From a virus, in IMG/VR virus record IMGVR_UViG_3300023179_000017, positions 24,711 through 88,710 of that record: a DNA stretch of 64,000 bases, one strand, 5' to 3'. The translations under genes and the position numbers were made by a program. A model generated the notes under the pieces. The model searched no databases and was not told where the DNA came from. It was given only the letters and a program-made list of their open reading frames with translations. The first letter of the stretch is position 1, and each line of letters starts with the position of its first letter. Shown here one piece after another: positions 35,508 to 49,610 of this stretch.

Positions 35508-36313
35508 TTACTTTAAAGTGGCAAAAATATCCAGGTAGCACCGTTGGTAGTTTTAAAATATACCGAAGCATTATGGGTTTTATGGCACCTTTAAGTGGCG
35601 TAACCTACGGCGCAACTTTAATTTTAAAAATAAACGGCAAGCCACAACAGACTGTCACCTTTGAAGATGATCCGGTAGCAGATATCAATGCTGCCATCAC
35701 AGGCGGTAAAGCCTTTCTTTCAAATTCCGGCACACACTTTATTTTTAGATCAGATATCCGACAAGCTCCGGGGTCTGTGGAGATTGTGGGGGGAACTGCA
35801 ATGGGTCCTTTGGGACTTACTGCACGGCTTATCACCCAGACCTCGGAAGATACCCTAGTCGCCACACTCTCTGACACGACAACTGAATATACAGACCTAG
35901 ACGGAGTGCTCTGCGATTACTACGCTATCTCAACCGTCACAGACGGGGTTGAGAGCGACAAGTCAGGCTACCAACGACCTATTGAGGCAACAGGTCCCAT
36001 CTGCGTCATTGAAGGGACTATCACAAACTTACAAGGCACAGCAGCCTCCGATGTCGAGGTCAAAGCTACCATTCAAGTGCCTACAGAAATCGTGAGTGGT
36101 ACAGCCATTACTTTAAAGCCCATTACGACACGCACCGACAAATTTGGAAAATTCAGTCTTCCTCTTTTACAAAAGGCCCTAATTAAACTAGAAATACCAG
36201 ATATAGGGTTTATGCAATTATTTAAAGTTCCAGAACAGACTTGTGTATTCTTATCTGATTTAGTGTCGGACGAGGATGCCTATTATCCAATCGGATATAG
36301 AGGGGCAACCTGA
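35504..36313 (+). CDS. probable structural protein, paralog of 32579..33151
   Basis: ICVIEGTITNLQG...TRTDKFGKFSLPLLQKALIKLEIPD. Confidence 0.65.
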   Translation: MITLKWQKYPGSTVGSFKIYRSIMGFMAPLSGVTYGATLILKINGKPQQTVTFEDDPVADINAAITGGKAFLSNSGTHFIFRSDIRQAPGSVEIVGGTAMGPLGLTARLITQTSEDTLVATLSDTTTEYTDLDGVLCDYYAISTVTDGVESDKSGYQRPIEATGPICVIEGTITNLQGTAASDVEVKATIQVPTEIVSGTAITLKPITTRTDKFGKFSLPLLQKALIKLEIPDIGFMQLFKVPEQTCVFLSDLVSDEDAYYPIGYRGAT

Positions 36314-38238
36314 TGGCAGATTTACTGACAGGGAGCGAAGGCGCGCTTGATCCGAGTTTATCTATCGGCAGCAGCATGGTCGGTCAAAGATATCCGAACC
36401 AGTTCTTTGACTTGGCTCAACAGTACATGCCCCCAACGATTAAAGAGCTTTTTCGTTGGTGTACCTTTTACTATTACAACTCTCCGCTTATCGGAAGCAC
36501 GATTAGTAAAATCAGCAGATATCCAATTACAGACCTCATTTTTGAATCCCACTTAGAGAGTACTAGACACCTTTGGGATAAAATCTTTAATCATGAACTA
36601 AAGATTAAAAACCAGCTCATGGAAATAAACCTTGATTACCACGCTTATGGAAATGCTTTTGTTTCAGTTCACCTTCCCTTCACAAGATTTCTTATTTGTA
36701 AAAGCTGTAAATCCAGAGAGACCATCCAAAACGCCGACTGGTCTTTTAATACTTCAGCCTATGACTTTAATCTGAATTGCTCCAAATGCGGTACCAACGC
36801 AGCAGCCGAAGTAAAAGACGTTCCCTACAAAGACCGAAAAGGGATTCGTATCATTCGTTGGAACCCAGAAAATATTCAAGTTAAATACAACGAGTACACC
36901 GGAAAAAGAATCTACATGTACTCGATTCCTTACCGACTTAAAAACGCTATCCAAAGAGGCGACAAAGACATCGTAGAAGATGTGCCTCTTATTGTTCTTC
37001 AAGCGCTAAAAAGCCGAAGGCTCATTAGGTTTAACAGCGACAACTTCATGCACCTAAGAAGACCCTCTCTGGCAGAACAAGACCAGGGTTGGGGTAAGCC
37101 GCTTATTATCCATGTCCTAAAAGACATGTACTACCTCTACACTTTAAGAAGAGCGCAAGAAGCTATCGCCATGGAACACATTGTTCCGTTCGATATCATC
37201 TACCCTCTTCCTAACGCCCAACAAGACCCCTACCTGCACTTAGACCTTGCAAACTGGAGGGTTCAGATTGAGGGGATCATCCGAAAGCACAGGCGTGATC
37301 CAAACTTCAAAGGCGTTATTCCGATTCCTGTTGGCTTTGGACGGCTTGGCGGCGATGGCAAGGCTATGCTCCTTACCCCAGAGCTTAACTACTTAACACA
37401 GACCATTGTGGGCGGTATGGGGATTCCTCAGGAGTTCCTATTTGGGGGACTTAACTGGACTGGCAGTAGCATCAGCTTACGCACCCTTGAAAACGACTTT
37501 ATTCAAAACAGATCCCAACTTTTAGATTTCGTAAACTGGATTAAAAATAAAATTCGAGTCTGGCAAAACTTACCTGATTTAGAAGAAATAAGATTTGCTG
37601 ACTTTAGAATGGCTGATGACGTTCAAAGAAACCAGCAACTCATTGGACTAAATGCTTCTTTCAAAGTCTCAGACCAAACACTTCTGACTGAACTTGGGTT
37701 TGATTACGACCAAGAGATTAAAAAGATGGTCGAAGAGGTTTACTTACAAAACTACTTAAATGACATGAGAGCGAAAGCTTCAGCACGAAGCCAAGGCGAG
37801 TCTCAGCTCATTCAGTACAACTATCAAAACAAGATTCAGGAGCTAGCTCAAAAGGCTCAAGAAAAAGTTCAGCAGACGATGCCACAGATGGATCAAATGG
37901 AACAGCAAGCACCACAAGGATGGCAGCAAGCCATGCCAGAAGCGCTCCCTCAACAGGGAGACCCTTCTACTCAAGGAGTCGAGCAAGATATCAAAGTAAG
38001 AGTGCGAAGATGGGCTAACAAGTTAATGAACTTTGCTCCCACAGAAGCTAGAACCGCCATCAATGAATTAAAATCTAAGATGCCAGATATCGGAAGCGCT
38101 GTAGAACAAGAATACAACGCCCTAACAGCTGCTGAAACCCAAGGCGGTGGAAAAAGCATGGACAACGCTAAAAGCGTAATGCCAAACATGGCACCCTTAC
38201 CAGAAAAGGGAGCGCCAACAAGAGCTGGAATGGTCTAG
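36313..38238 (+). CDS. probable portal protein with a CxxC-CxxC insertion
   Basis: YHAYGNAFVS, IRWNPENIQV, FMH...GWGKPLI pattern; size and location typical of portals. Confidence 0.65.
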   Translation: MADLLTGSEGALDPSLSIGSSMVGQRYPNQFFDLAQQYMPPTIKELFRWCTFYYYNSPLIGSTISKISRYPITDLIFESHLESTRHLWDKIFNHELKIKNQLMEINLDYHAYGNAFVSVHLPFTRFLICKSCKSRETIQNADWSFNTSAYDFNLNCSKCGTNAAAEVKDVPYKDRKGIRIIRWNPENIQVKYNEYTGKRIYMYSIPYRLKNAIQRGDKDIVEDVPLIVLQALKSRRLIRFNSDNFMHLRRPSLAEQDQGWGKPLIIHVLKDMYYLYTLRRAQEAIAMEHIVPFDIIYPLPNAQQDPYLHLDLANWRVQIEGIIRKHRRDPNFKGVIPIPVGFGRLGGDGKAMLLTPELNYLTQTIVGGMGIPQEFLFGGLNWTGSSISLRTLENDFIQNRSQLLDFVNWIKNKIRVWQNLPDLEEIRFADFRMADDVQRNQQLIGLNASFKVSDQTLLTELGFDYDQEIKKMVEEVYLQNYLNDMRAKASARSQGESQLIQYNYQNKIQELAQKAQEKVQQTMPQMDQMEQQAPQGWQQAMPEALPQQGDPSTQGVEQDIKVRVRRWANKLMNFAPTEARTAINELKSKMPDIGSAVEQEYNALTAAETQGGGKSMDNAKSVMPNMAPLPEKGAPTRAGMV

Positions 38239-38239
38239 T

Positions 38240-38452
38240 ATGTATGACATACAGCGACATACCCGCAGGTTTAATACGGAAAATACTTTGGACATGCAGT
38301 CGTATGACACTATCCTAAATAACCCTCTGTGCAGTATCATTAGAGAGGCGAGCGAAAAAATAACCGAAAAAGACTTTCAAGACGGCCAAATGGTGAACGT
38401 ACACGAGATGGTCATACTGGTGGTGACATGGGACGAAAAGATTCTTTTATAG
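38240..38452 (+). CDS. hypothetical protein
   Basis: 70 aa directly after the portal gene. Confidence 0.65.
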   Translation: MYDIQRHTRRFNTENTLDMQSYDTILNNPLCSIIREASEKITEKDFQDGQMVNVHEMVILVVTWDEKILL

Positions 38453-38655
38453 CGGGCTTTGAAAAACGCGCTGCTTTTAAGTGGTATGAAAACCTAAAAG
38501 CACAACAAGCAAAGCCCATCTCTAAATTAAAACGTACGCTTGGGTGGGGTGCCATAGGAGGCGCCGCAGGGTTTTACGGTGTTCATAAGCTGACGCAAGA
38601 TCCAGAGGAGAAAATGCTTAGTGACCAACAAAGACAAAATCAGGCAAGACATTAA
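38428..38655 (+). CDS. small FxxGFxKxA protein with a GxxxG helix
   Basis: DSFIAGFEKRAA...LGWGAIGGAAGFYG. Confidence 0.7.
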   Translation: MGRKDSFIAGFEKRAAFKWYENLKAQQAKPISKLKRTLGWGAIGGAAGFYGVHKLTQDPEEKMLSDQQRQNQARH

Positions 38656-39871
38656 GACGTACGAGAAGTATAAGCGTCTTAAAAACTTGGGTAATGTCGG
38701 CCTTGTGGGCAGCTTGGGCGGACTTCCAATCGCGGGTTATAAACAAAACAAACCTGCAGCAGCAGCTCTTTTGGGAACGAGTTTTCTATCCGGATTTGTA
38801 GCTAAAAGATCCGAAAGAGAAGAGCGGGCTGCGCTAAACAGAATTAAAAGATTCTACGATTTAAGAGACACTAACCCCATGTTTAACTTACCGGAGATTT
38901 TGCCTCTTCAAGAAAAGCGAGCCGCCACTGGAATTGTTGGGGCAGCTGCTATGGGGCTGGGGCACGCGTTGGGAATTAATGTTACGCCAGCAGAAGCAGT
39001 GGCAGCGGATTTTTTAGCTACTCCGGCCATGTTAGGTTTGGGTCTCTGGGCCACAAAACAAGGTATTAGAGTGTCCGCTAAAAGACATCTTGGTCAAAAG
39101 TTATCACCACACGGAAAAGCATATGCTCTAAGCATTGCTCCGCTTGGGGGTTTGAAGACTTTGTGGAATAAAAAGGTTGTTGATAGATTTATAAGATATA
39201 AACCTAAGTCCGAAAGGGTTTTAAACGAGATTATTGAAAAACAAAACTTGGGCCAAGAGTTAACCCCACCACAAAAAATACTTTATGGCCTATACAAAAA
39301 ACACCTGGCAGGGGAAAAACTTCCAAAAGAGCAACTAAAAAGGATCGTCCCGTCTTTACCTCAAAAGGCTCTTCAAAAAGTAACAGGCGGCCTTGCGTAC
39401 CTTGCAGACTACCCGTTTCAGTTTTTCGGCCCATTTGCGGAAAGCCAACATATAGCAAAAAACTATGTGGTGCCGGCGCACAAGTTTCTTTCTAAGTATT
39501 CTCCAAAACACGCAGACTTGATGTTGGATGTGATTGGTGGGGGACAAAAAGGAAAAGACGCCATTACAAAACTTAAAATGGATAAGATAGATGTTGATAA
39601 CTTCATCAAAGACTTGGGAAAAATCAGAAGCGTAGGCAAGGCTGCCGAGAATGCGGACAGGGCGGCAGAAGATATTGTTAAAAAATACTTCCTTCCAGAA
39701 AAACTAAAAGATACAAGCCAGAAGATGTTTGATATCAGAAACAGGTCTATCAGTGCTGCAAAGATGACAGGTCTTGGGGTGGGGGCTGGGCTTACTGGCA
39801 GTTTGCTTGGTAGCAGAAAAAAGAAAAACAAACGCGAAGAAGTAGCTTCTCATCTTGCCCTTATGAAATAG
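38621..39871 (+). CDS. basic protein with several Gly-rich hydrophobic helices (putative ejected/internal protein)
   Basis: EKRAA; GLVGSLGG, GIVGAAAMGLG, GLGVGAGLTGSLLG. Confidence 0.65.
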   Translation: MTNKDKIRQDIKTYEKYKRLKNLGNVGLVGSLGGLPIAGYKQNKPAAAALLGTSFLSGFVAKRSEREERAALNRIKRFYDLRDTNPMFNLPEILPLQEKRAATGIVGAAAMGLGHALGINVTPAEAVAADFLATPAMLGLGLWATKQGIRVSAKRHLGQKLSPHGKAYALSIAPLGGLKTLWNKKVVDRFIRYKPKSERVLNEIIEKQNLGQELTPPQKILYGLYKKHLAGEKLPKEQLKRIVPSLPQKALQKVTGGLAYLADYPFQFFGPFAESQHIAKNYVVPAHKFLSKYSPKHADLMLDVIGGGQKGKDAITKLKMDKIDVDNFIKDLGKIRSVGKAAENADRAAEDIVKKYFLPEKLKDTSQKMFDIRNRSISAAKMTGLGVGAGLTGSLLGSRKKKNKREEVASHLALMK

Positions 39872-39912
39872 CTAAAAAAAAGAGAGCCGGTACAGCACTC
39901 TCTTTTTGTCCT

Positions 39913-40263
39913 TTATCTGAACCCTGGAAACCTCGAATCTCCAGAGGAATAGGTTGGATTGTTGGTGAAAGAAGAGCTTGGGGAAAACCCACCACCAAAC
40001 GCTTTACTAGCCGTTTGGTTTGGCTCTGCTTCCATGCCTGATAGGATATCTTTATTCTGACGCTTGCGGCCATGAAATAATAATGTCCCTCCGGCTGCCA
40101 TCATAATGGCGGCAAACATCTGGTTTACGAAATCTTTCACAACTTGCTTCCAGAATTCGCAAGTTACGAGTTGACCGAATATTTCTCTTAATACCCTCCC
40201 TGTATTAGCAAGAAATTTGTTTTCCTTCTTTACTGTCACTGCGTCATTAGTGCCGTGTTCCAT
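39913..40263 (-). CDS. hypothetical protein
   Basis: strong SD GGAGGGGAG; divergent from the RNAP gene. Confidence 0.7.
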   Translation of the reverse strand: MEHGTNDAVTVKKENKFLANTGRVLREIFGQLVTCEFWKQVVKDFVNQMFAAIMMAAGGTLLFHGRKRQNKDILSGMEAEPNQTASKAFGGGFSPSSSFTNNPTYSSGDSRFPGFR

Positions 40264-40391
40264 TCTCCCCTCCCATGGTTAGTTGTGGTAGACTTTTAGA
40301 GATGATTTTAAGTAGTATTTGTATTGCTATTTCTGGTAGCTCTAGCATAGCGTTCCTTTGTTAGAGTTTCTAAAAACCTTATACCAACTAA

Positions 40392-43300
40392 ATGAGATTA
40401 TTTGATTCAAAGCAGGAGTTCGAAGCGATAAAAAAATCTGCTACAGAAGCAGTGCAAAGTGTATTCCCCATCGAAGGAAAAAATAGAATCATAAAACTCG
40501 ACGGCGTTTCCATCGACGACAACTTAAGAATAGACGATTACAAAAGCCAAGCAGAAATGAAATCAAAACAAGGGACTTGGGGCGTTCCGGTATATGCAAG
40601 CCTGTCCTTGATTGATAAAGCGAGCGGCAGAGTCATCAACAAAAATAATAAGGTTCGGCTCTTTATCCTGCCTAAAGCCACCGACCGATTCTCCTATATC
40701 GTTGGCGGAAACGAATACCAAGTTAATAACCAGCTGCGTTTAAAGTCTGGGGTCTACACCGTTAAAAAACAAAACGGCGAATTAAAGACCATGGTGAATC
40801 TAGCCCAAGGTAAAAACTTTGACTTGGTGTTCGATGAGAAAAAGGGAACCTTTGCTATTTCTAAAATCGGTGGCGGACAGGCCAACATCCCTCTTTACCC
40901 AATCCTTTCTGATTTAGGCGTCAGTGACCAGGCGATGAGCCAGTCTTGGAGCCCAGAGCTTTTAGCTGCCAATAAAACCTCAGACCCAAGGGTCATGCAA
41001 AGAGCTACCACGGCGTTTGGTTTAAGAGAGGGCTCTCTCAAAGAATACTTTGGAAAGACAAAACTGAACCCCGAAATGACCAAGCTCACCCTTGGCGGCG
41101 AATATGACAAAGTCTCAGGACCCATGCTTTTGTCAGCAGCCAAAAAGCTTTTAGAGGTGCACTTAGGAAAAGAAGAGCCCCAAGACTTAAACTCGCTTGA
41201 GTATAAAGAGCTCCACTCACTAGAAGATTTCATCAAAGAACGACTTGAAAAAAATAAAACAACGCTATCGTTTAAAATTCAACGCAGCATTGATAACCCT
41301 AAAAGAACAACCATCTCTCAAATCGTAAATCCAGAAGCCTTTAATTCCACGATTGAAACTTTCTTCACTCAAGATGATAAGTCCTCAACCCCAGAGCAAA
41401 CCAATCCGCTTGATATGCTCTCAGGCCAATACAAGGCCACCATCATGGGTTCAGGAGGGGTCACAAGCGAGCACGCTGTCACAGACTCCATGCGAGAGAT
41501 TCATCCGACACATTACGGTTTATTAGACCCGATTCACACGCCGGAAAGTAAAAGAATCGGTGCTAACCTTCATTTGCCCCTCGGCGCTGTGAAGGGGGGC
41601 AAAGAGCTTAAAGCCATCTTCACCGACAAAAAAGGCAAGCCAGCCGTTCTATCGCCAACTGAAATTTATAATTCCAAAATAGCATTCCCAGGAGAAAAGG
41701 GAGAAAGGGTAAAGGTCCTCTACAAAGGAAGCCCGATGGTAGTCGATAGAAAAGAAGTCGACTACTTCAGCCCCGCTCCCCAAGCGCTCTTTTCTTGGAG
41801 CACAAACCTAGTTCCTTACCTTCCCTCCAACCAAGGAAACAGGGCCATGATGGCCGCTAAGATGTTAGAGCAAGCAACTTCATTAAAACACCGAGAAGCC
41901 CCCCTTGTTCAAGTCCGGTATGGAAATGAAACCTTGGAAAACCGAATTGGAAAAAGCTCGGCTGTTGTGTCACCGCTCGACGGAGTTGTAACTAAAATCA
42001 CGGACGACGAGATAACTCTCAATACCAAAGAAGGCGCTAAGGTAATCGGTCTTTACAACAACTTTGTTTTAAATAGAAAGAGCTACCTAAAAAACGAAGT
42101 AAAAGTAAAAGTAGGAGAGAAAGTAAAAGCGGGCCAGCTTCTTGCTGACAACAACTTTACGAAAGACGGTACCCTTGCGCTTGGGGTCAACTTAAGAGCT
42201 GCTTACCTTCCCTACAAAGGTCTTAATTTTGAAGACGGGATAGTCATTACAGAAAGTGCTGCTGAGAAGCTCACTAGCACGCACTTACATCGAAAAGAAA
42301 TTTCTACCGATGAAAACACCATTTTAAAGCTAAACGCCTACCGCACCCAGTACCCGAATGTGCTTACTCCTGAGAACTTGCGAAAGCTCGATGAAGACGG
42401 AGTTATTAAAAAAGGCCAAAGAGTAAAAATGGGCGAGGCAGTTATTGCAGCACTTAGAAAAAGAGACCCCTCTAAGATGCTCCAGGTCATAAACAAAAAG
42501 CTCTCTGACAGACCAAAAGATGAAAGCATTTATTGGACGTTTGAAGATGAAGGAGAAGTCATCGACGTACAAAAAGGGTCTAAGGGCGTCACTGTGTTTA
42601 TCAGAACAGAAGAAAAAGCAAAGATTGGGGATAAGCTTGCTGGACGGATGGGGAACAAAGGGATTATCACAAAGATCATCCCAGATAGCGAAGCTCCTCG
42701 TAACAGCAAAGACGAACCAGTAGACATTCTTTTAAACCCACATGGGGTTATCTCTCGTATCAATATCGGACAGATATATGAGTCGGCTGCTGCTAAGGCC
42801 GCCAAAAAACAAAACAGGGTTCATGAGGTCGATAACTTTAGTGGGGAAGACTATTTAGAAACCACCAAAGATTTTGTTAGAAAAGCTAAGGTTGATGACA
42901 AAGAAGAGCTTTTTGATCCAGTGAGTGGAAAGAAACTGGGCAGAGTTCACGTTGGTAACCCCTACATTCTAAAACTCTTTAAACTGTCTCAAGGAAACTT
43001 CTCAGCAAGACAGGGGGGCCCTGGCAACCCTTACGATTTAAACTTGCAGCCTCTTAAAGTAGGCGGAGAAGAGAGCTCTAAGGCGCTCGACCTTCTGACC
43101 ATGTACTCCATGCTTTCTCATGGTGCACGTGCCAACTTAAGAGAGATGACCAATTTAAAAGCAAGCCAAAACGACGAGTTCTGGACGGCCTTGAAATCGG
43201 GTCAGCCGCTTCCTCCACCTAAATCACCTTTCGTATATGACAAATTCTTAGCGTACTTAAAAGGTGCTGGAATCGATGTTAAAAAAGACGGCACTAAACT

Positions 43301-46300
43301 TACGCTTGCCCCATTAACTGACTCTGAAGTGACGTCGGCTAGCTCTGGGGAAGTCGAGAACCCTAACTTCTTCTATGCTAAAAACATGGCCCCTATTAAG
43401 GGTGGGTTTTTAGACCCTGTTAAGTTCGGCGGATTTAAAGGAACTAAATGGGGACACATCGAATTAAAAGAAGCCATCGTCAACCCTGTATTTGAAAACG
43501 CCGTGAAAAAGATAACGGGACTTGGAAGCCAGTTTGAAGAGATCATGGCAGGAAAGCTCTACGTAGATAAGAGCGGAAACCTAAATGCCGAAGGAAAGGG
43601 TGTAACAGGCGGCGCTGCTATTGAAATCCTTTTAAAGAAAATAGATGTGGATGAACAAATCAAAGTGCTCACCCTAAAAGCAAAAACATCTAAAGGTACG
43701 GCGCTTGATGATTTAAATAAAAGAATCCGGTACCTCACAGCCCTTAAAAAGTACGATCTTAAACCAGAAGAAGCCTACTTAAGAAAAAAGGTTCCGGTAG
43801 TGCCCCCTGTCTTTAGACCGATCTACACACTTCCTGACGGTAACACAGCCGCTTCTGATGTGAACTATATTTATCAGAACTTAGCGGTTCTAAATAAAAT
43901 GCAAAACCTTCCTGTGATGGACATGCTGCCTGAAGAAGAAAAGTCCGTTATTAGAAAAGATATCTACCAACACGCAAAGGGCTTAAGCGGAATTACAGAC
44001 CTTAATATCAAAGGCCGAGAGCGTGCCGGCTTTATCTCAGATATCAAAGGCGGCGGAGCCGAAGGTCAGCCCAAAGAAGGTTTCTTTATTAGTAAGCTAC
44101 TTAGTAAACAGCAAGACTTTGCAGGTCGTGGAACCATCATTCCTGAACCAGAACTGGGCGTCGATGAGGTGGCTCTTCCCGAGCAAATGGCATGGAGGCT
44201 ATTTGAACCGTTTGTAATTAAAGAGCTGGGCCGACTCGGTAAAACCCCAAACGCAGCTATGCAGGAAATTGAAAAAAGAACCGAGCTTGCTAAAAAAGCA
44301 CTAGAGATTGTCATGCAACAAAGAAAGGTGCTACTCAACAGAGCGCCTTCTCTGCACAAGTTTTCTATCATGGCGTTTAAACCTAAAACTACTTCTGGTA
44401 CAGCCATTAAAATCCCACCCCTTGTGGTTAAAGGCTTTAACGCAGATTTCGATGGCGACCAGCAATACGACTTTGTTCCTGTAACGCTTTCCAAAGAGTG
44501 TCAGCTTTGTTTTAATGCCGAGTATCTAGAGGAGAGACGGGTGGCAAGCCGATTTAAAGAAACGATACCCTGTCAAACAGATGGAGATGTCTTTTTGTTT
44601 CATCTAGAAGATTTCCCACATGGGGGGCTCGTTGCTTCCAAAAAAGGGGAAAAAGGCCGAATTGATTTTCACGCAGCACTTCCGGGAACAAAAGTCCTAT
44701 CGTATGACGAAAAAACCCAACGAGTAGAATGGAAAGAAATCTCCCACTGGTCAAAGCACTATGACCGAGAAGTTGTTACAGTCAACCTGCAATCAGGCCT
44801 ACAGATATTTACAGACGACGACCCAAGAGCGGTTTACGGGATTGAAAAGGGAACGCTCTCTTTTTCGAGGGCCACTCCAAAAGAAGCCATTGAAAAGGGA
44901 ATGCTTGTTCCACGAGCTTCTATACTTGATCTTGAAGGAGACAAAAAAGAAATCGAAGTCCCACAAAGAGACCGCGGAAACCGTGCGCACCTACTTAATA
45001 AAAGGATCGCACTAGATGGTCTGCTGGGTTACTTCGTAGGAACTGTGGCAGGCGACGGATGGTGCTCAGATGAAAGACAGGTCTACATAGCCGGAATTAC
45101 CGAAGAGATACTTAAAAAAACAGACCAAGCAGTGGCAGCCATTCACAAGACCTCGCCCGCTCGATATACAACAGAAAATCAAAGTTCTTACGGGAAAAGT
45201 AAAAAACACGCCTACTCTAGCGCAGCCTTGTGTGAGCTTATTGAGCCGTGGGTAGGGTCTCAAACCAAGAACAAACACCTTCCCCCCTTCTTTTTGTCCG
45301 CATGTAAAGAGTTTAGAGAGGGTCTTTTTGCTGGGCTTATGGACACAGACGGGAGTATCTCGGTATTCAACGCCAAAGATAAGCCGCAACTTATTTCTAG
45401 TTTTTCAAGCACCAGCTTAAGGCTTGCTCAAGAAGTACAGCTTTTAGCCGCAAGTCTTGGAATTAAAGGAAGGATCAGCGCCAGCAAAACCCCAGCAGAA
45501 AAAGACAGCTGGGTCCTTTCTTTTTCTTCTGCCGACATTAAAAAATGGAACGGCAAAGAAATGGTGCACCCAGAAAAATTAAATAAACTTGCTATAGCCG
45601 AAGTATCCGAAAACAGCGCCGTATCAGCAAAGTATGACGTTATTCCTATTTCTACCTCTCTGGCTGAAACAATAAGAAAAAATTTAGGTGCCCCAAGTGA
45701 CGCCTCTCCAGAACAAAAATCGCTATATGCTGTATTACATAAGGCAGCAGAGACGGGAACTATCAGCCGACAAACAGCAAAGAAACTACCTGGATTTGTT
45801 TTCGTAGATATCTTAAATCACCCAGACGGAAAGACCTGGCTTGCAATTGTAGAAGATACACGCGTTCAGTGGGAATCTGTTGAGTCTATTGATGTCACGG
45901 GAATAAAAGAAACAGGATATGATTTGACGGTCCCGGGATACGAAACATTCATGAATGTGTCCGGGGTTATCCTATCTAACACCATGACGGTACACGTTCC
46001 AATTACAGAGGATGCAAACCAAGAGGCCGAGAAGCTTCTTCCTTCAAGAAATCTTTATCAGCCAGGCACCGGCAAGCTCATGATTACCCCAAGCCAAGAA
46101 GCGCAGATTGGGCTCTACTATCTTTCTAAAACGCCTCAAGGAAGAGCGAGAATTAATCAGATTGTAGGAAAACAAGCCGTGGGCGGGGTTCTTAATAAGA
46201 AGGCTACACAAGAGCTTCTTTTAAAACTAAGCAAAGAATTAAAGTCAAACGAGTTTGGAAGAGTCCTCACCGACCTAAAATCCGAAGGAGAAAAGATAGC

Positions 46301-47927
46301 CTTTGAGCGCGGCTTTACTTTAGGGCTAGACGATTTATCGGTGATGAAAAAAGAAAGAGACAAGGTCGTTACGACCATCAGAGCCCTTTTGCCTAAGACA
46401 ACTCAGGAGCAGCTCCCAAAACTAAACGCCAAAGCTACCGAGTTAGTAGACAAGATTCTTTCTAAAAGATTTAAAGATAAGAACAACCCTCTCTACGACA
46501 TGGTCGAGTCTGGTGCTAGAGGAGAGCCATCCCAGCTAAGACAAATACTAGCAACGCCACTTTTTGTAGCTGACGCAAAAGGAAAGATTGTTCCTTCGGT
46601 GATTCAGAAATCCTACGCAGAGGGGCTCGATGTCGGCGACTACTGGACGAGCATGTACGGAGCTCGTCGAGGGATGATGGATAGAGCGATTCAAACAAGT
46701 CTTCCAGGTGCTTTCTCAAAAGACATCATGGCAAACACCATCGATACAGTTATTTCTGATACCGACTGCGGCACCACAAGGGGCGTTTCCCAAAACATCG
46801 ATAGCCCCGATGTATTAGACAGATATGCAGCCGGCGATTCATACGTAAGTAGAAATGTTTTAATTGATTCCGATGAAGTGAGTAGACTTAGAAAAAAGGG
46901 CGTAAAAACCATCTTGGTAAGAAGCCCCCTTACTTGCCTCAAACCAAAAGGCGTTTGCTCCAAGTGCTATGGGTTAGACGAACACGGACAAGCTCCAGAG
47001 GTTGGCGAGAACGTCGGAGCTAAAGCAGGGCAAACTATTTCTGAACCTCTTGTCCAGCTAGTCATGAATACGTTCCACACCGGAGGTGCTGCAGGAACAG
47101 GTGCTGACGTTCAAGGCTACAAACGAATCGACCAGCTTTTAAAACTACCTAAAGCCGTACCAGGAGCAGCGTCCCTAGCTCCAATTCCAGGAAAGATTAC
47201 TAAAATCCAACGGGGGATTGCGGGCGGTTTTGATGTGTTTGTAGGGGACAAAAAAGTCCATACCCCACAGGGTAAAGCGCTTAAGGTAAAAATAGGGGAC
47301 GAAGTTTCTGCCGGAGATGCTCTTTCAGAAGGGGTGATTAAACCACAAGACTTGGTCCAATTAAAAGGAATGCAGCCGGCCCAAGAATATATCGTAAATG
47401 AACTTCACGGGGCTTACGCAAATCAAGGTGTCAAAATCCACCGAAAGGTTTTTGAAACTATTATCAGGTCGTTTGGAAATACTACGAAAGTCATCAACAA
47501 CCCCAAACAGTCCTACTTTGTGCCGGGTGATGTGGTGCCTTACACAGTAGCCCAACACTACAATGAAAACTTAAACGAAGAAGTGCCCACAGAAAATGCG
47601 GTTGGTTATGTGCTTTCTAAAAACTATGGATTACTTAGAGCGGGTCACGAAGTCACCCAAAAGGATACGATTCTTTTAAAAGCCTTAGGCCATAAAAAAG
47701 TTTTAATAAAAAAAGAAGCTCTACAGCACGCACCTCTTTTAAAGAGCGTCACAACTCTTCCACTTCTAAAACGAAACTGGATGAGCGCTCTTGGATATCG
47801 AAACTTAGCCAAAGCCCTCACCGAAGGAGCGGGTCAAGGCTGGAGCACCGACCTCGAAGACTACCACCCAATCCCAGCGTTTGCTCACAGCACGACGTTT
47901 GGAAAAGGCAAAGACGGTAAATACTAG
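40392..47927 (+). CDS. rpoBC: single-chain fused beta-beta' DNA-directed RNA polymerase, intein-containing (2004 aa if spliced)
   Basis: beta motifs HPTHYG...TPE, NFEDGI, GDKLAGRMGNKG, NPHGVISRINIG; beta' motifs GHIEL, VPPVFRP, LNRAPSLH, NADFDGD, bridge helix GARRG, trigger loop SEPLVQLVMNTFHTGG, Zn site DCG...C...CSKC. Confidence 0.93.
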   Translation: MRLFDSKQEFEAIKKSATEAVQSVFPIEGKNRIIKLDGVSIDDNLRIDDYKSQAEMKSKQGTWGVPVYASLSLIDKASGRVINKNNKVRLFILPKATDRFSYIVGGNEYQVNNQLRLKSGVYTVKKQNGELKTMVNLAQGKNFDLVFDEKKGTFAISKIGGGQANIPLYPILSDLGVSDQAMSQSWSPELLAANKTSDPRVMQRATTAFGLREGSLKEYFGKTKLNPEMTKLTLGGEYDKVSGPMLLSAAKKLLEVHLGKEEPQDLNSLEYKELHSLEDFIKERLEKNKTTLSFKIQRSIDNPKRTTISQIVNPEAFNSTIETFFTQDDKSSTPEQTNPLDMLSGQYKATIMGSGGVTSEHAVTDSMREIHPTHYGLLDPIHTPESKRIGANLHLPLGAVKGGKELKAIFTDKKGKPAVLSPTEIYNSKIAFPGEKGERVKVLYKGSPMVVDRKEVDYFSPAPQALFSWSTNLVPYLPSNQGNRAMMAAKMLEQATSLKHREAPLVQVRYGNETLENRIGKSSAVVSPLDGVVTKITDDEITLNTKEGAKVIGLYNNFVLNRKSYLKNEVKVKVGEKVKAGQLLADNNFTKDGTLALGVNLRAAYLPYKGLNFEDGIVITESAAEKLTSTHLHRKEISTDENTILKLNAYRTQYPNVLTPENLRKLDEDGVIKKGQRVKMGEAVIAALRKRDPSKMLQVINKKLSDRPKDESIYWTFEDEGEVIDVQKGSKGVTVFIRTEEKAKIGDKLAGRMGNKGIITKIIPDSEAPRNSKDEPVDILLNPHGVISRINIGQIYESAAAKAAKKQNRVHEVDNFSGEDYLETTKDFVRKAKVDDKEELFDPVSGKKLGRVHVGNPYILKLFKLSQGNFSARQGGPGNPYDLNLQPLKVGGEESSKALDLLTMYSMLSHGARANLREMTNLKASQNDEFWTALKSGQPLPPPKSPFVYDKFLAYLKGAGIDVKKDGTKLTLAPLTDSEVTSASSGEVENPNFFYAKNMAPIKGGFLDPVKFGGFKGTKWGHIELKEAIVNPVFENAVKKITGLGSQFEEIMAGKLYVDKSGNLNAEGKGVTGGAAIEILLKKIDVDEQIKVLTLKAKTSKGTALDDLNKRIRYLTALKKYDLKPEEAYLRKKVPVVPPVFRPIYTLPDGNTAASDVNYIYQNLAVLNKMQNLPVMDMLPEEEKSVIRKDIYQHAKGLSGITDLNIKGRERAGFISDIKGGGAEGQPKEGFFISKLLSKQQDFAGRGTIIPEPELGVDEVALPEQMAWRLFEPFVIKELGRLGKTPNAAMQEIEKRTELAKKALEIVMQQRKVLLNRAPSLHKFSIMAFKPKTTSGTAIKIPPLVVKGFNADFDGDQQYDFVPVTLSKECQLCFNAEYLEERRVASRFKETIPCQTDGDVFLFHLEDFPHGGLVASKKGEKGRIDFHAALPGTKVLSYDEKTQRVEWKEISHWSKHYDREVVTVNLQSGLQIFTDDDPRAVYGIEKGTLSFSRATPKEAIEKGMLVPRASILDLEGDKKEIEVPQRDRGNRAHLLNKRIALDGLLGYFVGTVAGDGWCSDERQVYIAGITEEILKKTDQAVAAIHKTSPARYTTENQSSYGKSKKHAYSSAALCELIEPWVGSQTKNKHLPPFFLSACKEFREGLFAGLMDTDGSISVFNAKDKPQLISSFSSTSLRLAQEVQLLAASLGIKGRISASKTPAEKDSWVLSFSSADIKKWNGKEMVHPEKLNKLAIAEVSENSAVSAKYDVIPISTSLAETIRKNLGAPSDASPEQKSLYAVLHKAAETGTISRQTAKKLPGFVFVDILNHPDGKTWLAIVEDTRVQWESVESIDVTGIKETGYDLTVPGYETFMNVSGVILSNTMTVHVPITEDANQEAEKLLPSRNLYQPGTGKLMITPSQEAQIGLYYLSKTPQGRARINQIVGKQAVGGVLNKKATQELLLKLSKELKSNEFGRVLTDLKSEGEKIAFERGFTLGLDDLSVMKKERDKVVTTIRALLPKTTQEQLPKLNAKATELVDKILSKRFKDKNNPLYDMVESGARGEPSQLRQILATPLFVADAKGKIVPSVIQKSYAEGLDVGDYWTSMYGARRGMMDRAIQTSLPGAFSKDIMANTIDTVISDTDCGTTRGVSQNIDSPDVLDRYAAGDSYVSRNVLIDSDEVSRLRKKGVKTILVRSPLTCLKPKGVCSKCYGLDEHGQAPEVGENVGAKAGQTISEPLVQLVMNTFHTGGAAGTGADVQGYKRIDQLLKLPKAVPGAASLAPIPGKITKIQRGIAGGFDVFVGDKKVHTPQGKALKVKIGDEVSAGDALSEGVIKPQDLVQLKGMQPAQEYIVNELHGAYANQGVKIHRKVFETIIRSFGNTTKVINNPKQSYFVPGDVVPYTVAQHYNENLNEEVPTENAVGYVLSKNYGLLRAGHEVTQKDTILLKALGHKKVLIKKEALQHAPLLKSVTTLPLLKRNWMSALGYRNLAKALTEGAGQGWSTDLEDYHPIPAFAHSTTFGKGKDGKY
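44460..45980 (+). mobile_element. intein (507 aa) with LAGLIDADG homing endonuclease; starts with Gln
   Basis: separates NADFDGD from TMTVHVP; ends YDLTVPGYETF...ILSN/T; endonuclease blocks VGTVAGDG, LFAGLMDTDG, STSLRLAQEVQLLAASLGI. Confidence 0.85.
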
Positions 47928-47930
47928 CCG

Positions 47931-49610
47931 ATGGAACACTTTCTAAAAAAGTTTGCGGCCCTTAAAAAAGATGTGGAACTAAAACCACATCAAAAAAGGG
48001 TAGTTAAAAGAACCGAAGACTCGGGCTCCATGCTAGTTGCTCACGCCACAGGAAGCGGAAAGACCCTCACCGGAATCGCGGCTTTTGAAAACCTTAAACA
48101 AAAAGGCAAGGCCAAACGAGCTATCGTCGTCGTCCCTGCTGCTTTAAGAAGTAATTTCATCGAACAAGGAATTAAACAGTTCACTGACTCTTCTTTTAGT
48201 ATGTATGGGCCTAAAGGAGAGAAGGGCAGTAAAAAAATTGGGGATAAAAGTAGTTCTGATTACGTTATTGTCAGCTACGACCTATTTAGAACCCACGCCG
48301 ACCAGATTCTAAAAGACACAGGTGCCGACACCCTCATCATGGATGAGATCCATAGAGCTAGAGCCACGGAAGGCGCTACTTACAAAAAGCTTGTTCAAAT
48401 GAGACCCCAATTTAAAAACGCAATTACTCTAACAGGGTCTGTCGTCAACAATGAGCCAGGAGACGTAGTACCTTTATTAGACGTAACCTACGGAAAAGGA
48501 AATCACCTTTTAGGAGAAAAACAGGAGTTCTCTAGAAGATTTGTCACAAGTAAAGCGCAGAGCAGGGGGCTATTTGGGCCACAGGAGCAGGTTAAGTCTT
48601 TAAAGCACCAAGAGGAACTGGGTAATTACCTAAGAAACAAAGTCGACTATCTTTCACACGACGAGATTCAAGGCTCTCTGCCCAATAAAAAAGTAGAAAC
48701 TATTGAAATACCTATGACGGAGGAGCAGAAACGAATCTACGACTTTACCATGAAGTCGGTAGACCCGATTACTCGGTGGAAAATTAAATACAACATCCCA
48801 GTAGGACAAAGAGAAGCAAGGGATGCTTTTGGAAAGCTTATGCAAGCAAGACAGGTTTCTACCGACCCAGGCATTTTGTCTAGGACGCTACAGAAGAAAA
48901 ACCCTACAGAGTATTCCCCTAAAGTGAAATCCATTGTAGAGGACGCGGAAACCCATTTAAAAAAGACGCCTAAAAACAAAACCGTTATTTTCGGAAACCT
49001 CCTCACAGGCCAACTCCACGCTATCGAGCGCGGCCTACAAGCTAAAAAAATAGACTACTCAAAATTCTATGGCACAGGAAACGAAGGGTCTTCCGCAGCA
49101 GAGCGAGAAGAGGCTTTAAAACAATTTAAGAACAGTGACAAACGGGTGCTCCTCATTTCTGGGGCTGGTAGCGAGGGGCTTGATTTAAAAGATGTGAACC
49201 TCATGCAGCTTGCTGAAGGTCACTACAACCCAGAACGAATTGAGCAAGCAGAAGCTCGAGTCCGAAGAATGGGCTCACCACTAAAAAATGTGGCAATCAG
49301 AAGATATGTTTCGGTACCAGATGCCCCGGGGCTTATTACCAGCGCCAAGAAGTTTCTGGGCCGCGAAGACCAAGGAATTGATAAGTGGATATACAACATT
49401 GCTGAAAACAAAAACACCCTAAACTCTCAGTTTCGAGATGTACTAAAAGGAAAGCCGGGCAAGTTTAATGAGGCTTTCTTCAAGAAGTGGGATAAAAACA
49501 AACCTCTCGAACAACAACCAGAACAAAAAAAGAGCAGGCTATTCAAGAGGCTAGCGGTAGGTGCCCTTGTTGGCCTTCCACTTATGGCTTTAGCTTACAA
49601 AAAAATATAG
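47931..49610 (+). CDS. SNF2-family (SF2) ATPase/helicase with a hydrophobic C-terminal tail
   Basis: HATGSGKT, DEIH, LTGS, GSEGLDL, YNPERIEQAEARVRRMG; C-terminus RLAVGALVGLPLMALAYKKI. Confidence 0.88.
   Translation: MEHFLKKFAALKKDVELKPHQKRVVKRTEDSGSMLVAHATGSGKTLTGIAAFENLKQKGKAKRAIVVVPAALRSNFIEQGIKQFTDSSFSMYGPKGEKGSKKIGDKSSSDYVIVSYDLFRTHADQILKDTGADTLIMDEIHRARATEGATYKKLVQMRPQFKNAITLTGSVVNNEPGDVVPLLDVTYGKGNHLLGEKQEFSRRFVTSKAQSRGLFGPQEQVKSLKHQEELGNYLRNKVDYLSHDEIQGSLPNKKVETIEIPMTEEQKRIYDFTMKSVDPITRWKIKYNIPVGQREARDAFGKLMQARQVSTDPGILSRTLQKKNPTEYSPKVKSIVEDAETHLKKTPKNKTVIFGNLLTGQLHAIERGLQAKKIDYSKFYGTGNEGSSAAEREEALKQFKNSDKRVLLISGAGSEGLDLKDVNLMQLAEGHYNPERIEQAEARVRRMGSPLKNVAIRRYVSVPDAPGLITSAKKFLGREDQGIDKWIYNIAENKNTLNSQFRDVLKGKPGKFNEAFFKKWDKNKPLEQQPEQKKSRLFKRLAVGALVGLPLMALAYKKI

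What the first reader, a model, noticed from the sequence alone, without database searches (positions are those of the whole stretch)
44439..45995. Atypical Gln1 intein directly after the catalytic NADFDGD
Seen: removing aa 1357-1863 restores NADFDGD-TMTVHVP (E. coli NADFDGD-QMAVHVP). The insert starts QQYDF (no Cys, Ser or Ala at position 1), has no His in block B (IFTDDDP), has Asp at block F position 4, ends Ser-Asn with Thr+1, and keeps two LAGLIDADG motifs. Known: class 1 inteins need Cys/Ser1; class 2 (KlbA) have Ala1 with Cys+1; class 3 need the Trp-Cys-Thr signature with a block-F Cys. This insert fits none. Inference: since the polymerase should need splicing, this may be an undescribed mechanism (direct Thr+1 attack, perhaps helped by the extein Asp or bound Mg2+) or a conditional switch on phage transcription.
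Basis: partly seen in the sequence, partly recalled or inferred. Interest (0 to 1): 0.8.

Follow-up and report, generated by a model that had tools for sequence, protein, structure and literature searches.

The report
Nucleophile-less intein in phage RNA polymerase
A mobile self-removing protein insert (intein) sits directly after the magnesium-binding NADFDGD motif of this phage's only RNA polymerase, and it belongs to a large, apparently undescribed family that lacks the first-residue nucleophile and the catalytic histidines used by known inteins, so it probably comes out by chemistry not yet characterised.

Summary
A 507-aa insert (aa 1357-1863, nt 44460-45980) lies between D1356 of NADFDGD and T1864 of a 2511-aa fused beta-beta' RNA polymerase. 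The genome is a 152-kb phage. Intein-free relatives read NADFDGD|TMTVHVP, and two natural allele pairs are 99.5-99.8% identical apart from this insertion. The AlphaFold2 model (pLDDT 91) is an intein fold with a nested LAGLIDADG endonuclease. It places Q1357 at canonical position 1 and N1863 at the last position.

The insert belongs to a family of hundreds of metagenomic members, all at this site.
- Position 1 is variable (Gln 45%; Cys/Ser/Thr 7%), so "Gln1" is not the defining trait.
- Block B reads TDDD rather than TxxH.
- The block-F and penultimate histidines are Glu and Ser.
- There is no class-3 Trp-Cys-Thr signature.
- Terminal Asn, block-F Asp, Thr+1 and an "NX-motif" His are invariant or nearly so.

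It is therefore most likely an active, mobile intein outside classes 1-3. The mechanism is inferred, not shown: direct Thr+1 attack is my first choice, and an Asp(-1) anhydride route is the main rival. Relatives include naturally split forms. I found no paper describing the family. This scan has flagged the same family before on other DNA (e1-5347419).

The parts
40392..47927 (+). Host gene: single-chain fused beta-beta' RNA polymerase precursor, 2511 aa (about 2004 aa after excision)
   Evidence: ORF list and translation. Pfam Rpb2_6, Rpb1_1/2/3/4/5 hits. It is the only copy in the 152,336-bp virus record.
44439..44459 (+). N-extein end: catalytic Mg-binding motif NADFDGD (aa 1350-1356). D1356 is residue -1.
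   Evidence: D-x-D-G-D is invariant in 112 aligned homologues.
44460..45980 (+). Intein, 507 aa (Q1357 to N1863)
   Evidence: Exact gap against intein-free alleles. AF2 model plus Foldseek/VIA matches to solved inteins, with model residue 15 (Q1357) at chain residue 1 and residue 521 (N1863) at the last residue.
44460..44486 (+). Block A equivalent: first beta-strand QQYDFVPVT. Position 1 carries no nucleophile.
   Evidence: Strand at model residues 19-23. Family pattern is x-Q-[LI]-x-x-V. Position 1 is variable.
44487..44540 (+). Family-specific variable linker (aa 1366-1383). It ends in an SD-like GAGGAG at 44529-44534.
   Evidence: Absent from the sister inteins P0259 and P0267. It is the site of the natural split in L009. 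DNA read.
44541..44561 (+). Conserved M/V-(T/A)-A-R-F motif (here GTG Val1384-ASRFKE). It is a candidate internal start codon and corresponds to the first codon of the C-terminal gene in split relatives.
44748..44759 (+). W-S-K-H: NX-motif histidine H1456 (invariant), with S1454 two residues before it (Ser/Thr in all 112)
   Evidence: Aligned to the R-H of PI-PkoII. The NX motif is defined in PMC10189870.
44796..44840 (+). Block B (N3): GLQIFTDDDPRAVYG. T1474 is kept, the canonical His is replaced by D1477, and R1479 sits at the class-3 Trp position.
   Evidence: D at this position in 109/112; R in 109/112. The sister lineage has TDDH.
45003..45614 (+). Nested LAGLIDADG homing endonuclease domain (aa 1538-1741). 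Its two motifs are at 45021-45062 and 45312-45356, and both catalytic Asp are present.
   Evidence: Pfam LAGLIDADG_3. Model residues 196-399 match I-DmoI and I-Tsp061I at Z 15-18.
45909..45953 (+). Block F: ETGYDLTVPGYETFM. D1844 is invariant. E1851 stands where Ssp DnaB has the His of PGPHNF.
45963..45980 (+). Block G: GVILSN. The penultimate residue is Ser instead of His, and the terminal residue is N1863 (invariant).
   Evidence: The C-junction is SN|T in 200 of 203 family members.
45981..46001 (+). C-extein start TMTVHVP. T1864 is residue +1.
   Evidence: Residue +1 is T in 111/112 intein-bearing proteins and in 77/88 intein-free ones.

Best explanation
What it is (about 0.85-0.9). This is a genuine, recently mobile intein with a nested LAGLIDADG homing endonuclease. 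It is inserted exactly between the third catalytic Asp of NADFDGD and the following Thr of the phage's only multisubunit RNA polymerase. It belongs to a large clade restricted to this one site. That clade descends from cysteine-less Ser1/Thr+1 'oxyester' inteins: it keeps their NX-motif His, block-B Thr, block-F Asp, terminal Asn and Thr+1. It has lost the residue-1 nucleophile and all three canonical histidines (block B to Asp, block F to Glu, penultimate to Ser).

How it works (inferred, about 0.4 for this route). Residue 1 cannot start the reaction. The hydroxyl of Thr+1 therefore attacks the D1356-Q1357 peptide bond directly, as Cys+1 does in class 2 KlbA inteins. His1456 and the acid cluster (D1475-D1477, D1844, E1851), possibly with a bound divalent cation, would activate the bond and the nucleophile. 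The resulting branched ester is resolved by cyclisation of N1863 and an O-to-N shift, restoring NADFDGD-TMTVHVP.

The endonuclease spreads the element into empty alleles, which explains its patchy distribution.
For: Shown here:
- Fold and register. AF2 pLDDT 91, pTM 0.89. Foldseek E 1e-19 and VIA Z 20-21 to the TliVMA, PI-PkoII, PI-PfuI and PI-SceI inteins. Q1357 maps to residue 1 and N1863 to the last residue of PI-PkoII, Pho RadA, Mxe GyrA and Npu DnaE.
- Exact junction. 86 intein-free relatives read DGD|TMTVHVP. P0002/P0260 are 99.8% identical and P0019/P0303 are 99.5% identical outside the insert.
- Mobility. On an N-extein tree, well-supported branches force at least 18 gains or losses of this intein family, out of 22 inferred on the whole tree. 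The endonuclease motifs are intact.
- The gene is essential and single-copy in a virus record that CheckV rates 100% complete.
- Selection on the splicing core. N1863, D1844 and H1456 are invariant. T+1 is in 111/112. T1474, D1475, D1477, R1479, E1851 and S1862 are each at least 90% conserved across members that are 35-56% identical.
- Position 1 is Cys/Ser/Thr in only 12 of 179.
- H1456 aligns with the R-H of PI-PkoII. That is the NX His which approaches the N-scissile bond in Ser1 inteins and is essential in PolB16, Psp Pol-1 and Mvu-M7 Pol-3 (PMC10189870).

From the literature: direct +1 attack on an amide is established for KlbA inteins (PMC2807308).
Against: No biochemical evidence of splicing exists for any member.

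A Thr hydroxyl is a much poorer nucleophile than the KlbA thiol. KlbA inteins also keep the block-B His that is missing here.

Thr+1 is also the commonest residue in intein-free alleles (77/88). Its conservation is therefore only weakly informative about a special role.

I could not obtain model coordinates, so no distances between T1864, H1456, the Asp cluster and the scissile bond were measured.

The sister inteins at the same site that have Asp(-1) still use Ser1 or Cys1. Whatever replaces residue 1 here is therefore specific to this clade and not identified.
Confidence: 0.45

Rival explanations
1. Extein-assisted route. The side chain of Asp(-1), the third catalytic Asp of the polymerase, attacks its own backbone carbonyl. 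This forms a cyclic anhydride and releases the intein N-terminus. Thr+1 then opens the anhydride, by its hydroxyl first or by its amine after Asn cyclisation, to give the ligated polymerase. The extein Asp would take over the activating role of Cys1/Ser1.
For: Residue -1 is Asp in every member that lacks a residue-1 nucleophile (about 109 scored). The related lineage with Asn at -1 (P0314 type, DFDGN) has Cys1 and a C-terminal Asp instead of Asn. The intein core has become strongly acidic (TDDD, Glu in block F), which could hold Asp(-1) protonated or bind metal. From my own knowledge: Asp-X cleavage through an anhydride followed by capture by a nucleophile is established chemistry, for example the Ca-dependent Asp-Pro self-processing module of FrpC.
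Against: Asp(-1) is invariant anyway because the polymerase needs it, so the correlation is confounded. It also rests on few independent lineages. The sister inteins P0259 and P0267 have Asp(-1) yet keep Ser1 or Cys1. Opening the anhydride at the wrong carbonyl would give isoaspartate in the active site. There is no structural measurement.
Confidence: 0.17
2. Class-3-like route with an internal hydroxyl nucleophile. A conserved intein Ser or Thr attacks the N-terminal junction, forms an ester, and passes the N-extein to Thr+1. The first candidate is S1454, two residues before His1456 on the same strand face. T1846 and T1852 are alternatives.
For: S1454 is Ser or Thr in all 112 aligned members, and H1456 is invariant. 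Both lie in one long strand (model residues 110-124), so their side chains face the same way. The NX His lies next to the N-scissile bond in solved Ser1 inteins (PMC10189870). Class 3 inteins set the precedent for an internal nucleophile (PMC2807308).
Against: Sister lineages that still have Ser1 or Cys1 also carry Thr at this position (ITLH, LTLH, LTVE). It is therefore not an innovation linked to loss of residue 1. The class 3 nucleophile position (block F:4) is Asp here. No distances could be measured.
Confidence: 0.12
3. Excision or cleavage without ligation. Asn cyclisation cuts the C-terminal junction, and the N-terminal junction may be hydrolysed. The polymerase then works as two non-covalently assembled chains broken at D1356|T1864.
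For: Relatives tolerate natural breaks in beta': Arash gp206 ends 88 aa after the motif and P0124's gene ends 93 aa after its intein. Loss of the residue-1 nucleophile with retention of the Asn machinery is what a cleavage-only element would look like.
Against: A free carboxylate and a chain break at the metal-binding Asp is a drastic change to the most conserved loop of the enzyme. Hydrolysis at the N-junction still needs unexplained chemistry. If only the C-junction were cut, a 57-kDa domain would stay attached in the active-site cleft. Near-identical intein-free alleles are continuous chains.
Confidence: 0.08
4. Dead or domesticated insert. The element no longer splices, and the allele is either non-functional or tolerates the domain in place.
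For: All canonical N-terminal catalytic residues are missing. The one published nucleophile-less intein outside classes 2 and 3 (Arsp-FB24, WDT triplet) is titled a pseudogene (PMC3196547). The Pfam Intein_splicing score is below the curated cut-off.
Against: There are hundreds of intact members with invariant Asn, block-F Asp and NX His. Exteins are 99.5-99.8% identical to intein-free alleles. The gene is single-copy in a complete genome. The gain/loss pattern is scattered, as for an actively homing element. From my own knowledge of RNA polymerase structure, the insertion point is buried at the catalytic centre.
Confidence: 0.05

Closest known systems
Cysteine-less class 1 'oxyester' inteins with the NX-motif histidine (PI-PkoII/PI-TkoII, Psp Pol-1, PolB16 OarG; PMC10189870)
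   Same: It has the same Hint fold with a nested LAGLIDADG domain. PI-PkoII gives the best sequence-profile match in the PDB (E 1e-18). The NX His is preceded here by Lys. Block-B Thr, block-F Asp, terminal Asn and Thr+1 are all present. Like PolB16 OarG, relatives can be split very near the N-terminus (24-aa N-piece in L009).
   Different: There is no Ser1, and position 1 is unconstrained. The block-B His, reported as absolutely conserved in the Ser1 inteins that paper examined, is Asp. The block-F and penultimate His positions are Glu and Ser. The family has an extra linker after the first strand.
Class 2 inteins (archaeal KlbA, Ala1/Cys+1; Southworth 2000 as summarised in PMC2807308)
   Same: Both lack a residue-1 nucleophile. 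The likeliest mechanism here, direct attack of the +1 residue on the N-terminal amide, is the KlbA mechanism.
   Different: Residue +1 is Thr rather than Cys. Position 1 is mostly Gln/Glu/Asp rather than Ala. The block-B His is absent. The host protein and lineage differ, and KlbA structures were not among the listed fold or sequence matches.
Class 3 inteins (Trp-Cys-Thr signature; MP-Be DnaB, PMC2807308)
   Same: Both lack a residue-1 nucleophile, have Thr+1, and are phage-borne and inserted in a catalytic loop of a nucleic-acid enzyme.
   Different: None of the three signature residues is present: Arg at B:12, Asp at F:4 and Leu at G:5. There is no block-B His either.
Sister inteins at the same NADFDGD|T site in related phage polymerases (P0259, P0267)
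   Same: They share the insertion point, the NX His, the T-D-D start of block B, the ETF block F and Asn|Thr at the C-junction.
   Different: They keep Ser1 or Cys1 and the block-B His (TDDH). They lack the linker and the LEDFPHG...IDF insertion.

Membership tests
Intein (Hint splicing domain with nested LAGLIDADG endonuclease) | Hint fold with N- and C-termini at canonical positions | tested here: met
   AF2 pLDDT 91. Foldseek E 1e-19 and VIA Z 20-21 to solved inteins. Model residue 15 (Q1357) maps to residue 1 and residue 521 (N1863) to the last residue.
Intein (Hint splicing domain with nested LAGLIDADG endonuclease) | In-frame insertion in a conserved site of a host protein, with intein-free alleles that define the junction | tested here: met
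   86 intein-free relatives read DGD|TMTVHVP or a near variant. Allele pairs are 99.5-99.8% identical outside the insert.
Intein (Hint splicing domain with nested LAGLIDADG endonuclease) | C-terminal Asn (or Asp/Gln) followed by Cys/Ser/Thr +1 | tested here: met
   N1863|T1864. The C-junction is SN|T in 200 of 203 members.
Intein (Hint splicing domain with nested LAGLIDADG endonuclease) | Demonstrated protein splicing (excision plus ligation) | not testable with these tools
   This needs expression and mass spectrometry. It is supported only indirectly, by conservation and allele pairs.
Class 1 inteins | Cys, Ser or Thr at intein position 1 | tested here: not met
   Q1357 in the window. Family counts are Q81, E23, D17, A15, with C/S/T in 12 of 179.
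Class 1 inteins | Block B (N3) TxxH histidine | tested here: not met
   The block reads T-D-D-D. Asp occupies the His position in 109/112 members.
Class 1 inteins | Block F position 4 Asp | tested here: met
   D1844 is invariant and aligns to the Asp of Ssp DnaB VFDLTV.
Class 2 (KlbA-type) inteins | Ala1 together with Cys+1 | tested here: not met
   The window has Gln1 and Thr+1. Ala1 occurs in only 15 of 179 members. Residue +1 is never Cys.
Class 2 (KlbA-type) inteins | Direct attack of the +1 nucleophile on the N-terminal amide | not testable with these tools
   This is a mechanistic property. I propose it by analogy only.
Class 3 inteins | Trp at block B:12, Cys at block F:4 and Thr at block G:5 (WCT triplet) | tested here: not met
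   The three positions are R1479, D1844 and L1861. The signature is defined in PMC2807308.
Ser1/Thr+1 oxyester inteins with NX motif | NX-motif His preceded by Lys/Arg, upstream of block B | tested here: met
   K1455-H1456. The His is invariant, and Lys or Arg precedes it in 52/112 members. It aligns to the R-H of PI-PkoII.
Ser1/Thr+1 oxyester inteins with NX motif | Ser1 nucleophile and conserved N3 His | tested here: not met
   Neither is present.
Atypically split inteins (PolB16 OarG type) | Intein encoded in two genes with a very short N-piece | tested here: not met
   The window's intein is one continuous frame. The relative L009 is split after 24 residues.

The most novel reading that the evidence does not exclude
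This family is a fourth mechanistic class of protein splicing. The host protein's own catalytic loop supplies the missing chemistry. Either Asp(-1) of NADFDGD forms a cyclic anhydride that replaces the residue-1 (thio)ester, or a divalent metal activates the scissile amide. That metal would be held jointly by the extein D-x-D-x-D and the intein T-D-D-D/Glu cluster. Maturation of the virion-type RNA polymerase would then be coupled to the same metal site that it later uses for catalysis.
Probability: 0.2. Interest if true: 0.92.

Novelty: new variant of a known kind. Interest (0 to 1): 0.78.

Why it matters
Published nucleophile-less inteins all fall into the KlbA (class 2) or Trp-Cys-Thr (class 3) groups. 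The one reported exception is titled a pseudogene (PMC3196547).

This case is different. It is a family of hundreds, under clear purifying selection and apparently still homing. It has none of the known solutions and has also replaced all three catalytic histidines with acidic or hydroxyl residues.

If it splices, it defines new splicing chemistry, and it does so without cysteine. Cysteine-less inteins are the type sought for protein engineering under oxidising conditions. The natural split forms with N-pieces of about 24 residues are directly relevant to semi-synthesis.

It also marks the polymerase's Mg-binding loop as a hotspot. At least four intein lineages share the site, which makes this a natural comparative system for how the extein context shapes intein mechanism.

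Tried and rejected
1. Different start of the intein. I considered a start at a downstream Cys (CQLC at 1370-1373, or C1394), or at the conserved M-T/A-A-R-F motif, which a first sequence-only alignment to PI-PkoII seemed to place near canonical residue 1. I rejected this. Intein-free alleles fix the junction at D1356|Q1357. The structural alignments put Q1357 at residue 1. Those cysteines are not conserved.

2. The HMMER alignment of QQYDFVPVTLSKE to the extein QMAVHVPLSLEAQ suggested a duplicated extein stub. The family consensus (x-Q-L-x-S-V-L) does not keep it, so I treat it as chance or block-A-like pattern.

3. Group I intron or another RNA-level element. I rejected this because the whole insert is in frame and folds as a Hint plus LAGLIDADG protein.

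4. Canonical subgroup inside the family. Members with Cys, Ser or Thr at position 1 (12 of 179) did not stand out among the exceptions listed: none has a block-B His, and only one (P0119) differs at the C-junction (Ser+1). The three members with a penultimate His (HN|T; P0125, P0130, P0206) still lack a nucleophile (position 1 is E and Q in the two listed).

5. Literature. Ten full-text searches found nothing describing an intein at this site or a nucleophile-less family outside classes 2 and 3. The terms included intein+NADFDGD, 'class 4 intein', Gln1, multisubunit RNAP+phage, rpoC+phage, anhydride, and Arash. Papers on phage Arash, Jug phages and actinophage inteins do not mention it.

6. 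Promoter scan inside the intein: no plus-strand sigma-70-like site above shuffled expectation.

7. P0124 as a split form. I rejected this because its gene starts at the contig edge.

8. Model coordinates are not exposed to scripts, so no inter-atomic distances could be measured.
Full report
**1. Observation**

The window carries one long ORF, 40392-47927 on the plus strand (2511 aa). Pfam finds the Rpb2 and Rpb1 domain series in a single chain, so this is a fused beta-beta' multisubunit RNA polymerase.

- NADFDGD is aa 1350-1356 (nt 44439-44459).
- A 507-aa insert follows at aa 1357-1863 (nt 44460-45980).
- The chain resumes with TMTVHVP at aa 1864.

The genome is an IMG/VR virus record of 152,336 bp that CheckV rates 100% complete. 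It has one polymerase gene and one intein of this family. A portal-like gene lies upstream and an Snf2-type helicase lies downstream. The cultured distant relative Salmonella phage Arash has the same layout (33% identity). In Arash the polymerase subunits are among the most abundant virion proteins (PMC10585845).

**2. The junctions are exact**

A search scored on the N-extein alone returned many close relatives of about 2000 aa without the insert, at up to 74% identity. After D-x-DGD they read TMTVHVP or a near variant. The first residue is Thr in 77 of 88, Ala in 7 and Ser in 2.

Two natural allele pairs settle the matter.
- P0002 (2519 aa) and P0260 (2007 aa) are 99.8% identical over 2007 residues.
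- P0019 and P0303 are 99.5% identical.
- In each pair the only large difference is an insertion between the third Asp and the Thr.

Arash, which is more distant, has the same spacing (DYDGD-ALSMYLP).

**3. It is a real intein**

- The Pfam Intein_splicing hit is sub-threshold (32 bits against a cut-off of 35.8).
- A profile of 100 homologues matches PI-PkoII at E 1e-18 and PI-PfuI at 4e-11.
- The AlphaFold2 model built from that alignment is confident (pLDDT 91.1, pTM 0.89).
- Foldseek finds the TliVMA intein (E 1e-19), PI-PkoII, PI-PfuI and PI-SceI.
- VIA-align gives Z 20-21 to these and Z 16-18 to mini-inteins at 2.2-2.8 A rmsd.

In those alignments model residue 14 or 15 pairs with chain residue 0 or 1, and model residue 521 pairs with the last intein residue. 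This holds for PI-PkoII, Pho RadA, Mxe GyrA and Npu DnaE. Q1357 therefore occupies canonical position 1 and N1863 the terminal Asn position. Model residues 196-399 form the LAGLIDADG domain (Z 15-18 to I-DmoI and I-Tsp061I).

**4. The family**

- The word-indexed search found 1163 proteins at E<=1e-5 among 8000 candidates, scored on a query region that also includes polymerase flanks; all 120 listed hits carry intein-type Pfam domains or the insert-sized length.
- The exhaustive search of 50%-identity representatives found 818 clusters at E<=1e-3, of which 237 are at E<=1e-30.
- Every member whose N-junction I could read sits after D-x-[DN]-G-D of a phage polymerase.

In 112 aligned members that are 35-56% identical to the window:

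| Position | Conservation |
|---|---|
| H1456, D1844, N1863 | invariant |
| T+1 | 111/112 |
| S1454 | Ser or Thr in all |
| T1474 | Thr or Ser in 107 |
| D1475 | 108 |
| D1477 | 109 |
| R1479 | 109 |
| E1851 | 109 |
| S1862 | 109 |

The C-junction is SN|T in 200 of 203 members. Position 1, by contrast, is unconstrained: Q81, E23, D17, A15, C7, L7, N5, F5, S4, K4 and others, of 179. 'Gln1 intein' is therefore a misnomer. The trait is the absence of any requirement at position 1.

**5. Comparison with the known classes**

*Class 1* needs Cys/Ser/Thr1 and normally the block-B His. Neither is present.

*Class 2* is defined by Ala1 and Cys+1. Here the residues are Gln and Thr.

*Class 3* is defined by Trp at B:12, Cys at F:4 and Thr at G:5 (PMC2807308). 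Here these are R1479, D1844 and L1861.

That paper states that all 40 full-length nucleophile-less inteins then known were either WCT or KlbA. The one exception was Arsp-FB24 (WDT), the subject of a later paper titled a pseudogene (PMC3196547).

All three canonical histidines are replaced.
- The block-B His is Asp.
- The block-F His (the His of PGPHNF in Ssp DnaB, by the alignment) is Glu.
- The penultimate His is Ser.

The one invariant His, H1456 in W-S-K-H, aligns with the R-H of PI-PkoII. That is the 'NX motif' His, described in 2023 as specific to Ser1/Ser+1(Thr+1) inteins. It approaches the N-scissile bond from the side opposite the block-B His. It is essential in the three inteins tested (PMC10189870).

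Two relatives, P0259 and P0267, carry a sister intein at the same site. These have Ser1 or Cys1, an NX His, T-D-D-H in block B, an ETF block F and KN|T.

The simplest history is that a cysteine-less class 1 intein at this site lost Ser1 and changed its block-B His to Asp.

**6. Evidence that it is active**

- The splicing-core residues are under strong purifying selection, while position 1 and the linker drift.
- The exteins of intein-bearing alleles are indistinguishable from intein-free ones.
- On a maximum-likelihood tree of the 400 residues before the motif (129 proteins), well-supported branches force at least 18 changes of the intein label, and 22 are inferred overall. The label is clustered, but far from a single origin. 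The sample is the top of two searches and is therefore biased. The near-identical plus/minus pairs do not depend on that.
- The endonuclease motifs keep both catalytic Asp.
- The polymerase gene is single-copy.
- From established structural knowledge, the insertion point is at the floor of the active centre, where a 57-kDa domain could not stay.

I put the probability that the element is removed from the mature enzyme at about 0.85-0.9.

**7. Mechanism (inference)**

With no residue-1 nucleophile and no block-F Cys, something else must break the D1356-Q1357 amide.

My first choice (about 0.4) is the class 2 logic with oxygen chemistry.
- Thr+1 attacks the amide directly.
- H1456 and the acid cluster (D1475-D1477, D1844, E1851) polarise the bond, deprotonate the hydroxyl and protonate the leaving amine.
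- A divalent ion may help, given that the D-x-D-x-D metal site is adjacent.
- N1863 cyclisation and an O-to-N shift then complete the reaction.

Rivals:
- *(a) Asp(-1) anhydride (about 0.17).* Every nucleophile-less member has Asp at -1 and Asn at the end. The related DFDGN lineage has Cys1 and a terminal Asp. However, Asp(-1) is fixed by the polymerase anyway.
- *(b) Internal Ser/Thr nucleophile such as S1454 (about 0.12).* This is weakened because sister inteins with Ser1 or Cys1 also have Thr at that position.
- *(c) Excision without ligation, giving a two-chain enzyme (about 0.08).*
- *(d) A dead or tolerated insert (about 0.05).*

**8. Extra anatomy: linker, internal start, split relatives**

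After the first strand (aa 1357-1365) comes a variable linker (aa 1366-1383), which the sister inteins lack. It is followed by a conserved M/V-(T/A)-A-R-F motif (Met in 82 of 112).

In locus L009 (an IMG/VR contig) the polymerase gene stops 24 residues after DFDGD. An AAGGAG sequence lies 8 nt upstream of an ATG that opens a second gene. That gene begins at this motif and encodes the rest of the intein plus the C-extein, with WSRH, TDDDPRAVYG and GVVLSN|T. L009 is therefore a naturally split member with a very short N-piece, like PolB16 OarG.

In the window and in 5 of 6 other contiguous members with DNA and a start codon at the motif, a GGAG-type Shine-Dalgarno core lies 6-8 nt before the conserved start-capable codon. 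In the window this is GAGGAG at 44529-44534 and GTG at 44541. The background is 6.6-10.7% of start-like codons. The nominal binomial P is 4e-8, but the loci are homologous, so this overstates the case.

The linker may be a fused former intergenic region, or the site of internal initiation. The polymerase gene's own start has no such motif, so use of Shine-Dalgarno sequences in this phage is uncertain.

**9. Novelty and verdict**

Ten full-text searches and six papers read gave no description of an intein at this site, or of a nucleophile-less family outside classes 2 and 3.

This scan has flagged the same family before on other DNA (e1-5347419). It has also flagged neighbouring variants (e1-5355373, split; e1-1940409 and e1-1940431, Asn-for-Asp lineages). 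Those notes gave me the NX-motif lead, which I checked against the paper and the alignments.

The thing is an intein, so the kind is known. Its catalytic set is new, and it may define a fourth mechanistic class. I rate it a new variant of a known kind, with interest 0.78.

Noticed in passing
window 44529-44543: Inside the intein frame, GAGGAG, a 6-nt spacer and GTG (Val1384) sit at the conserved M/V-(T/A)-A-R-F motif. The same Shine-Dalgarno-like core lies before the homologous start-capable codon in 5 of 6 other contiguous relatives and in the split relative. Background is 6.6-10.7%. It may be an internal translation start or a relic of a split ancestor.
   Followed up: partly
L009:1300-3549 (IMGVR_UViG_3300045988_176085): A naturally split member of the same intein family. 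The polymerase gene ends 24 residues after DFDGD (position 1 is Phe). An intergenic stretch of about 50 nt with AAGGAG and ATG then starts a gene for the rest of the intein plus the C-extein.
   Followed up: partly
proteins P0099, P0100, P0105, P0289, P0294, P0307, P0323 (relatives, not in the window): A different, canonical Ser1...His-Asn|Thr intein occupies the same site. It always comes with the middle catalytic Asp encoded as Asn (NADFNGD|S). A near-identical intein-free allele, P0293, has NADFDGD. A sub-branch of the nucleophile-less family (P0172, P0220, P0227, P0229, P0174) also reads DFNGD. Asn-Gly is a deamidation-prone pair, which may or may not be relevant.
   Followed up: partly
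proteins P0314, P0319 (relatives): A sister lineage shares the linker architecture but reads DFDGN|Cys1 ... Tyr/Phe-Asp|Thr. Compared with the window's family, Asp and Asn are swapped between position -1 and the intein's last residue. Block B has no His and the NX position is Glu or Asp. Canonical splicing would leave DFDGN in the polymerase.
   Followed up: no
window 36313-49610: The gene order is a portal-like protein, a 416-aa ORF, the fused beta-beta' polymerase and an Snf2-type helicase. Salmonella phage Arash has the same order, and there the polymerase is the most abundant protein in the virion proteome. This polymerase is therefore probably packaged in the virion.
   Followed up: partly
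proteins P0004, P0008, P0061, P0075, P0095, P0106 and others (relatives of 2850-3990 aa): Many homologous polymerases are 350-1500 aa longer than the window's and carry additional Hom_end, LAGLIDADG or Hint Pfam hits. They probably hold further inteins at other sites in the same gene.
   Followed up: no
window 44499-44519 and 44571-44573 (aa 1370, 1373, 1394): The window's linker contains CQLC and a further Cys (C1394). None is conserved in the family, so a zinc site or alternative nucleophile there is unlikely.
   Followed up: yes
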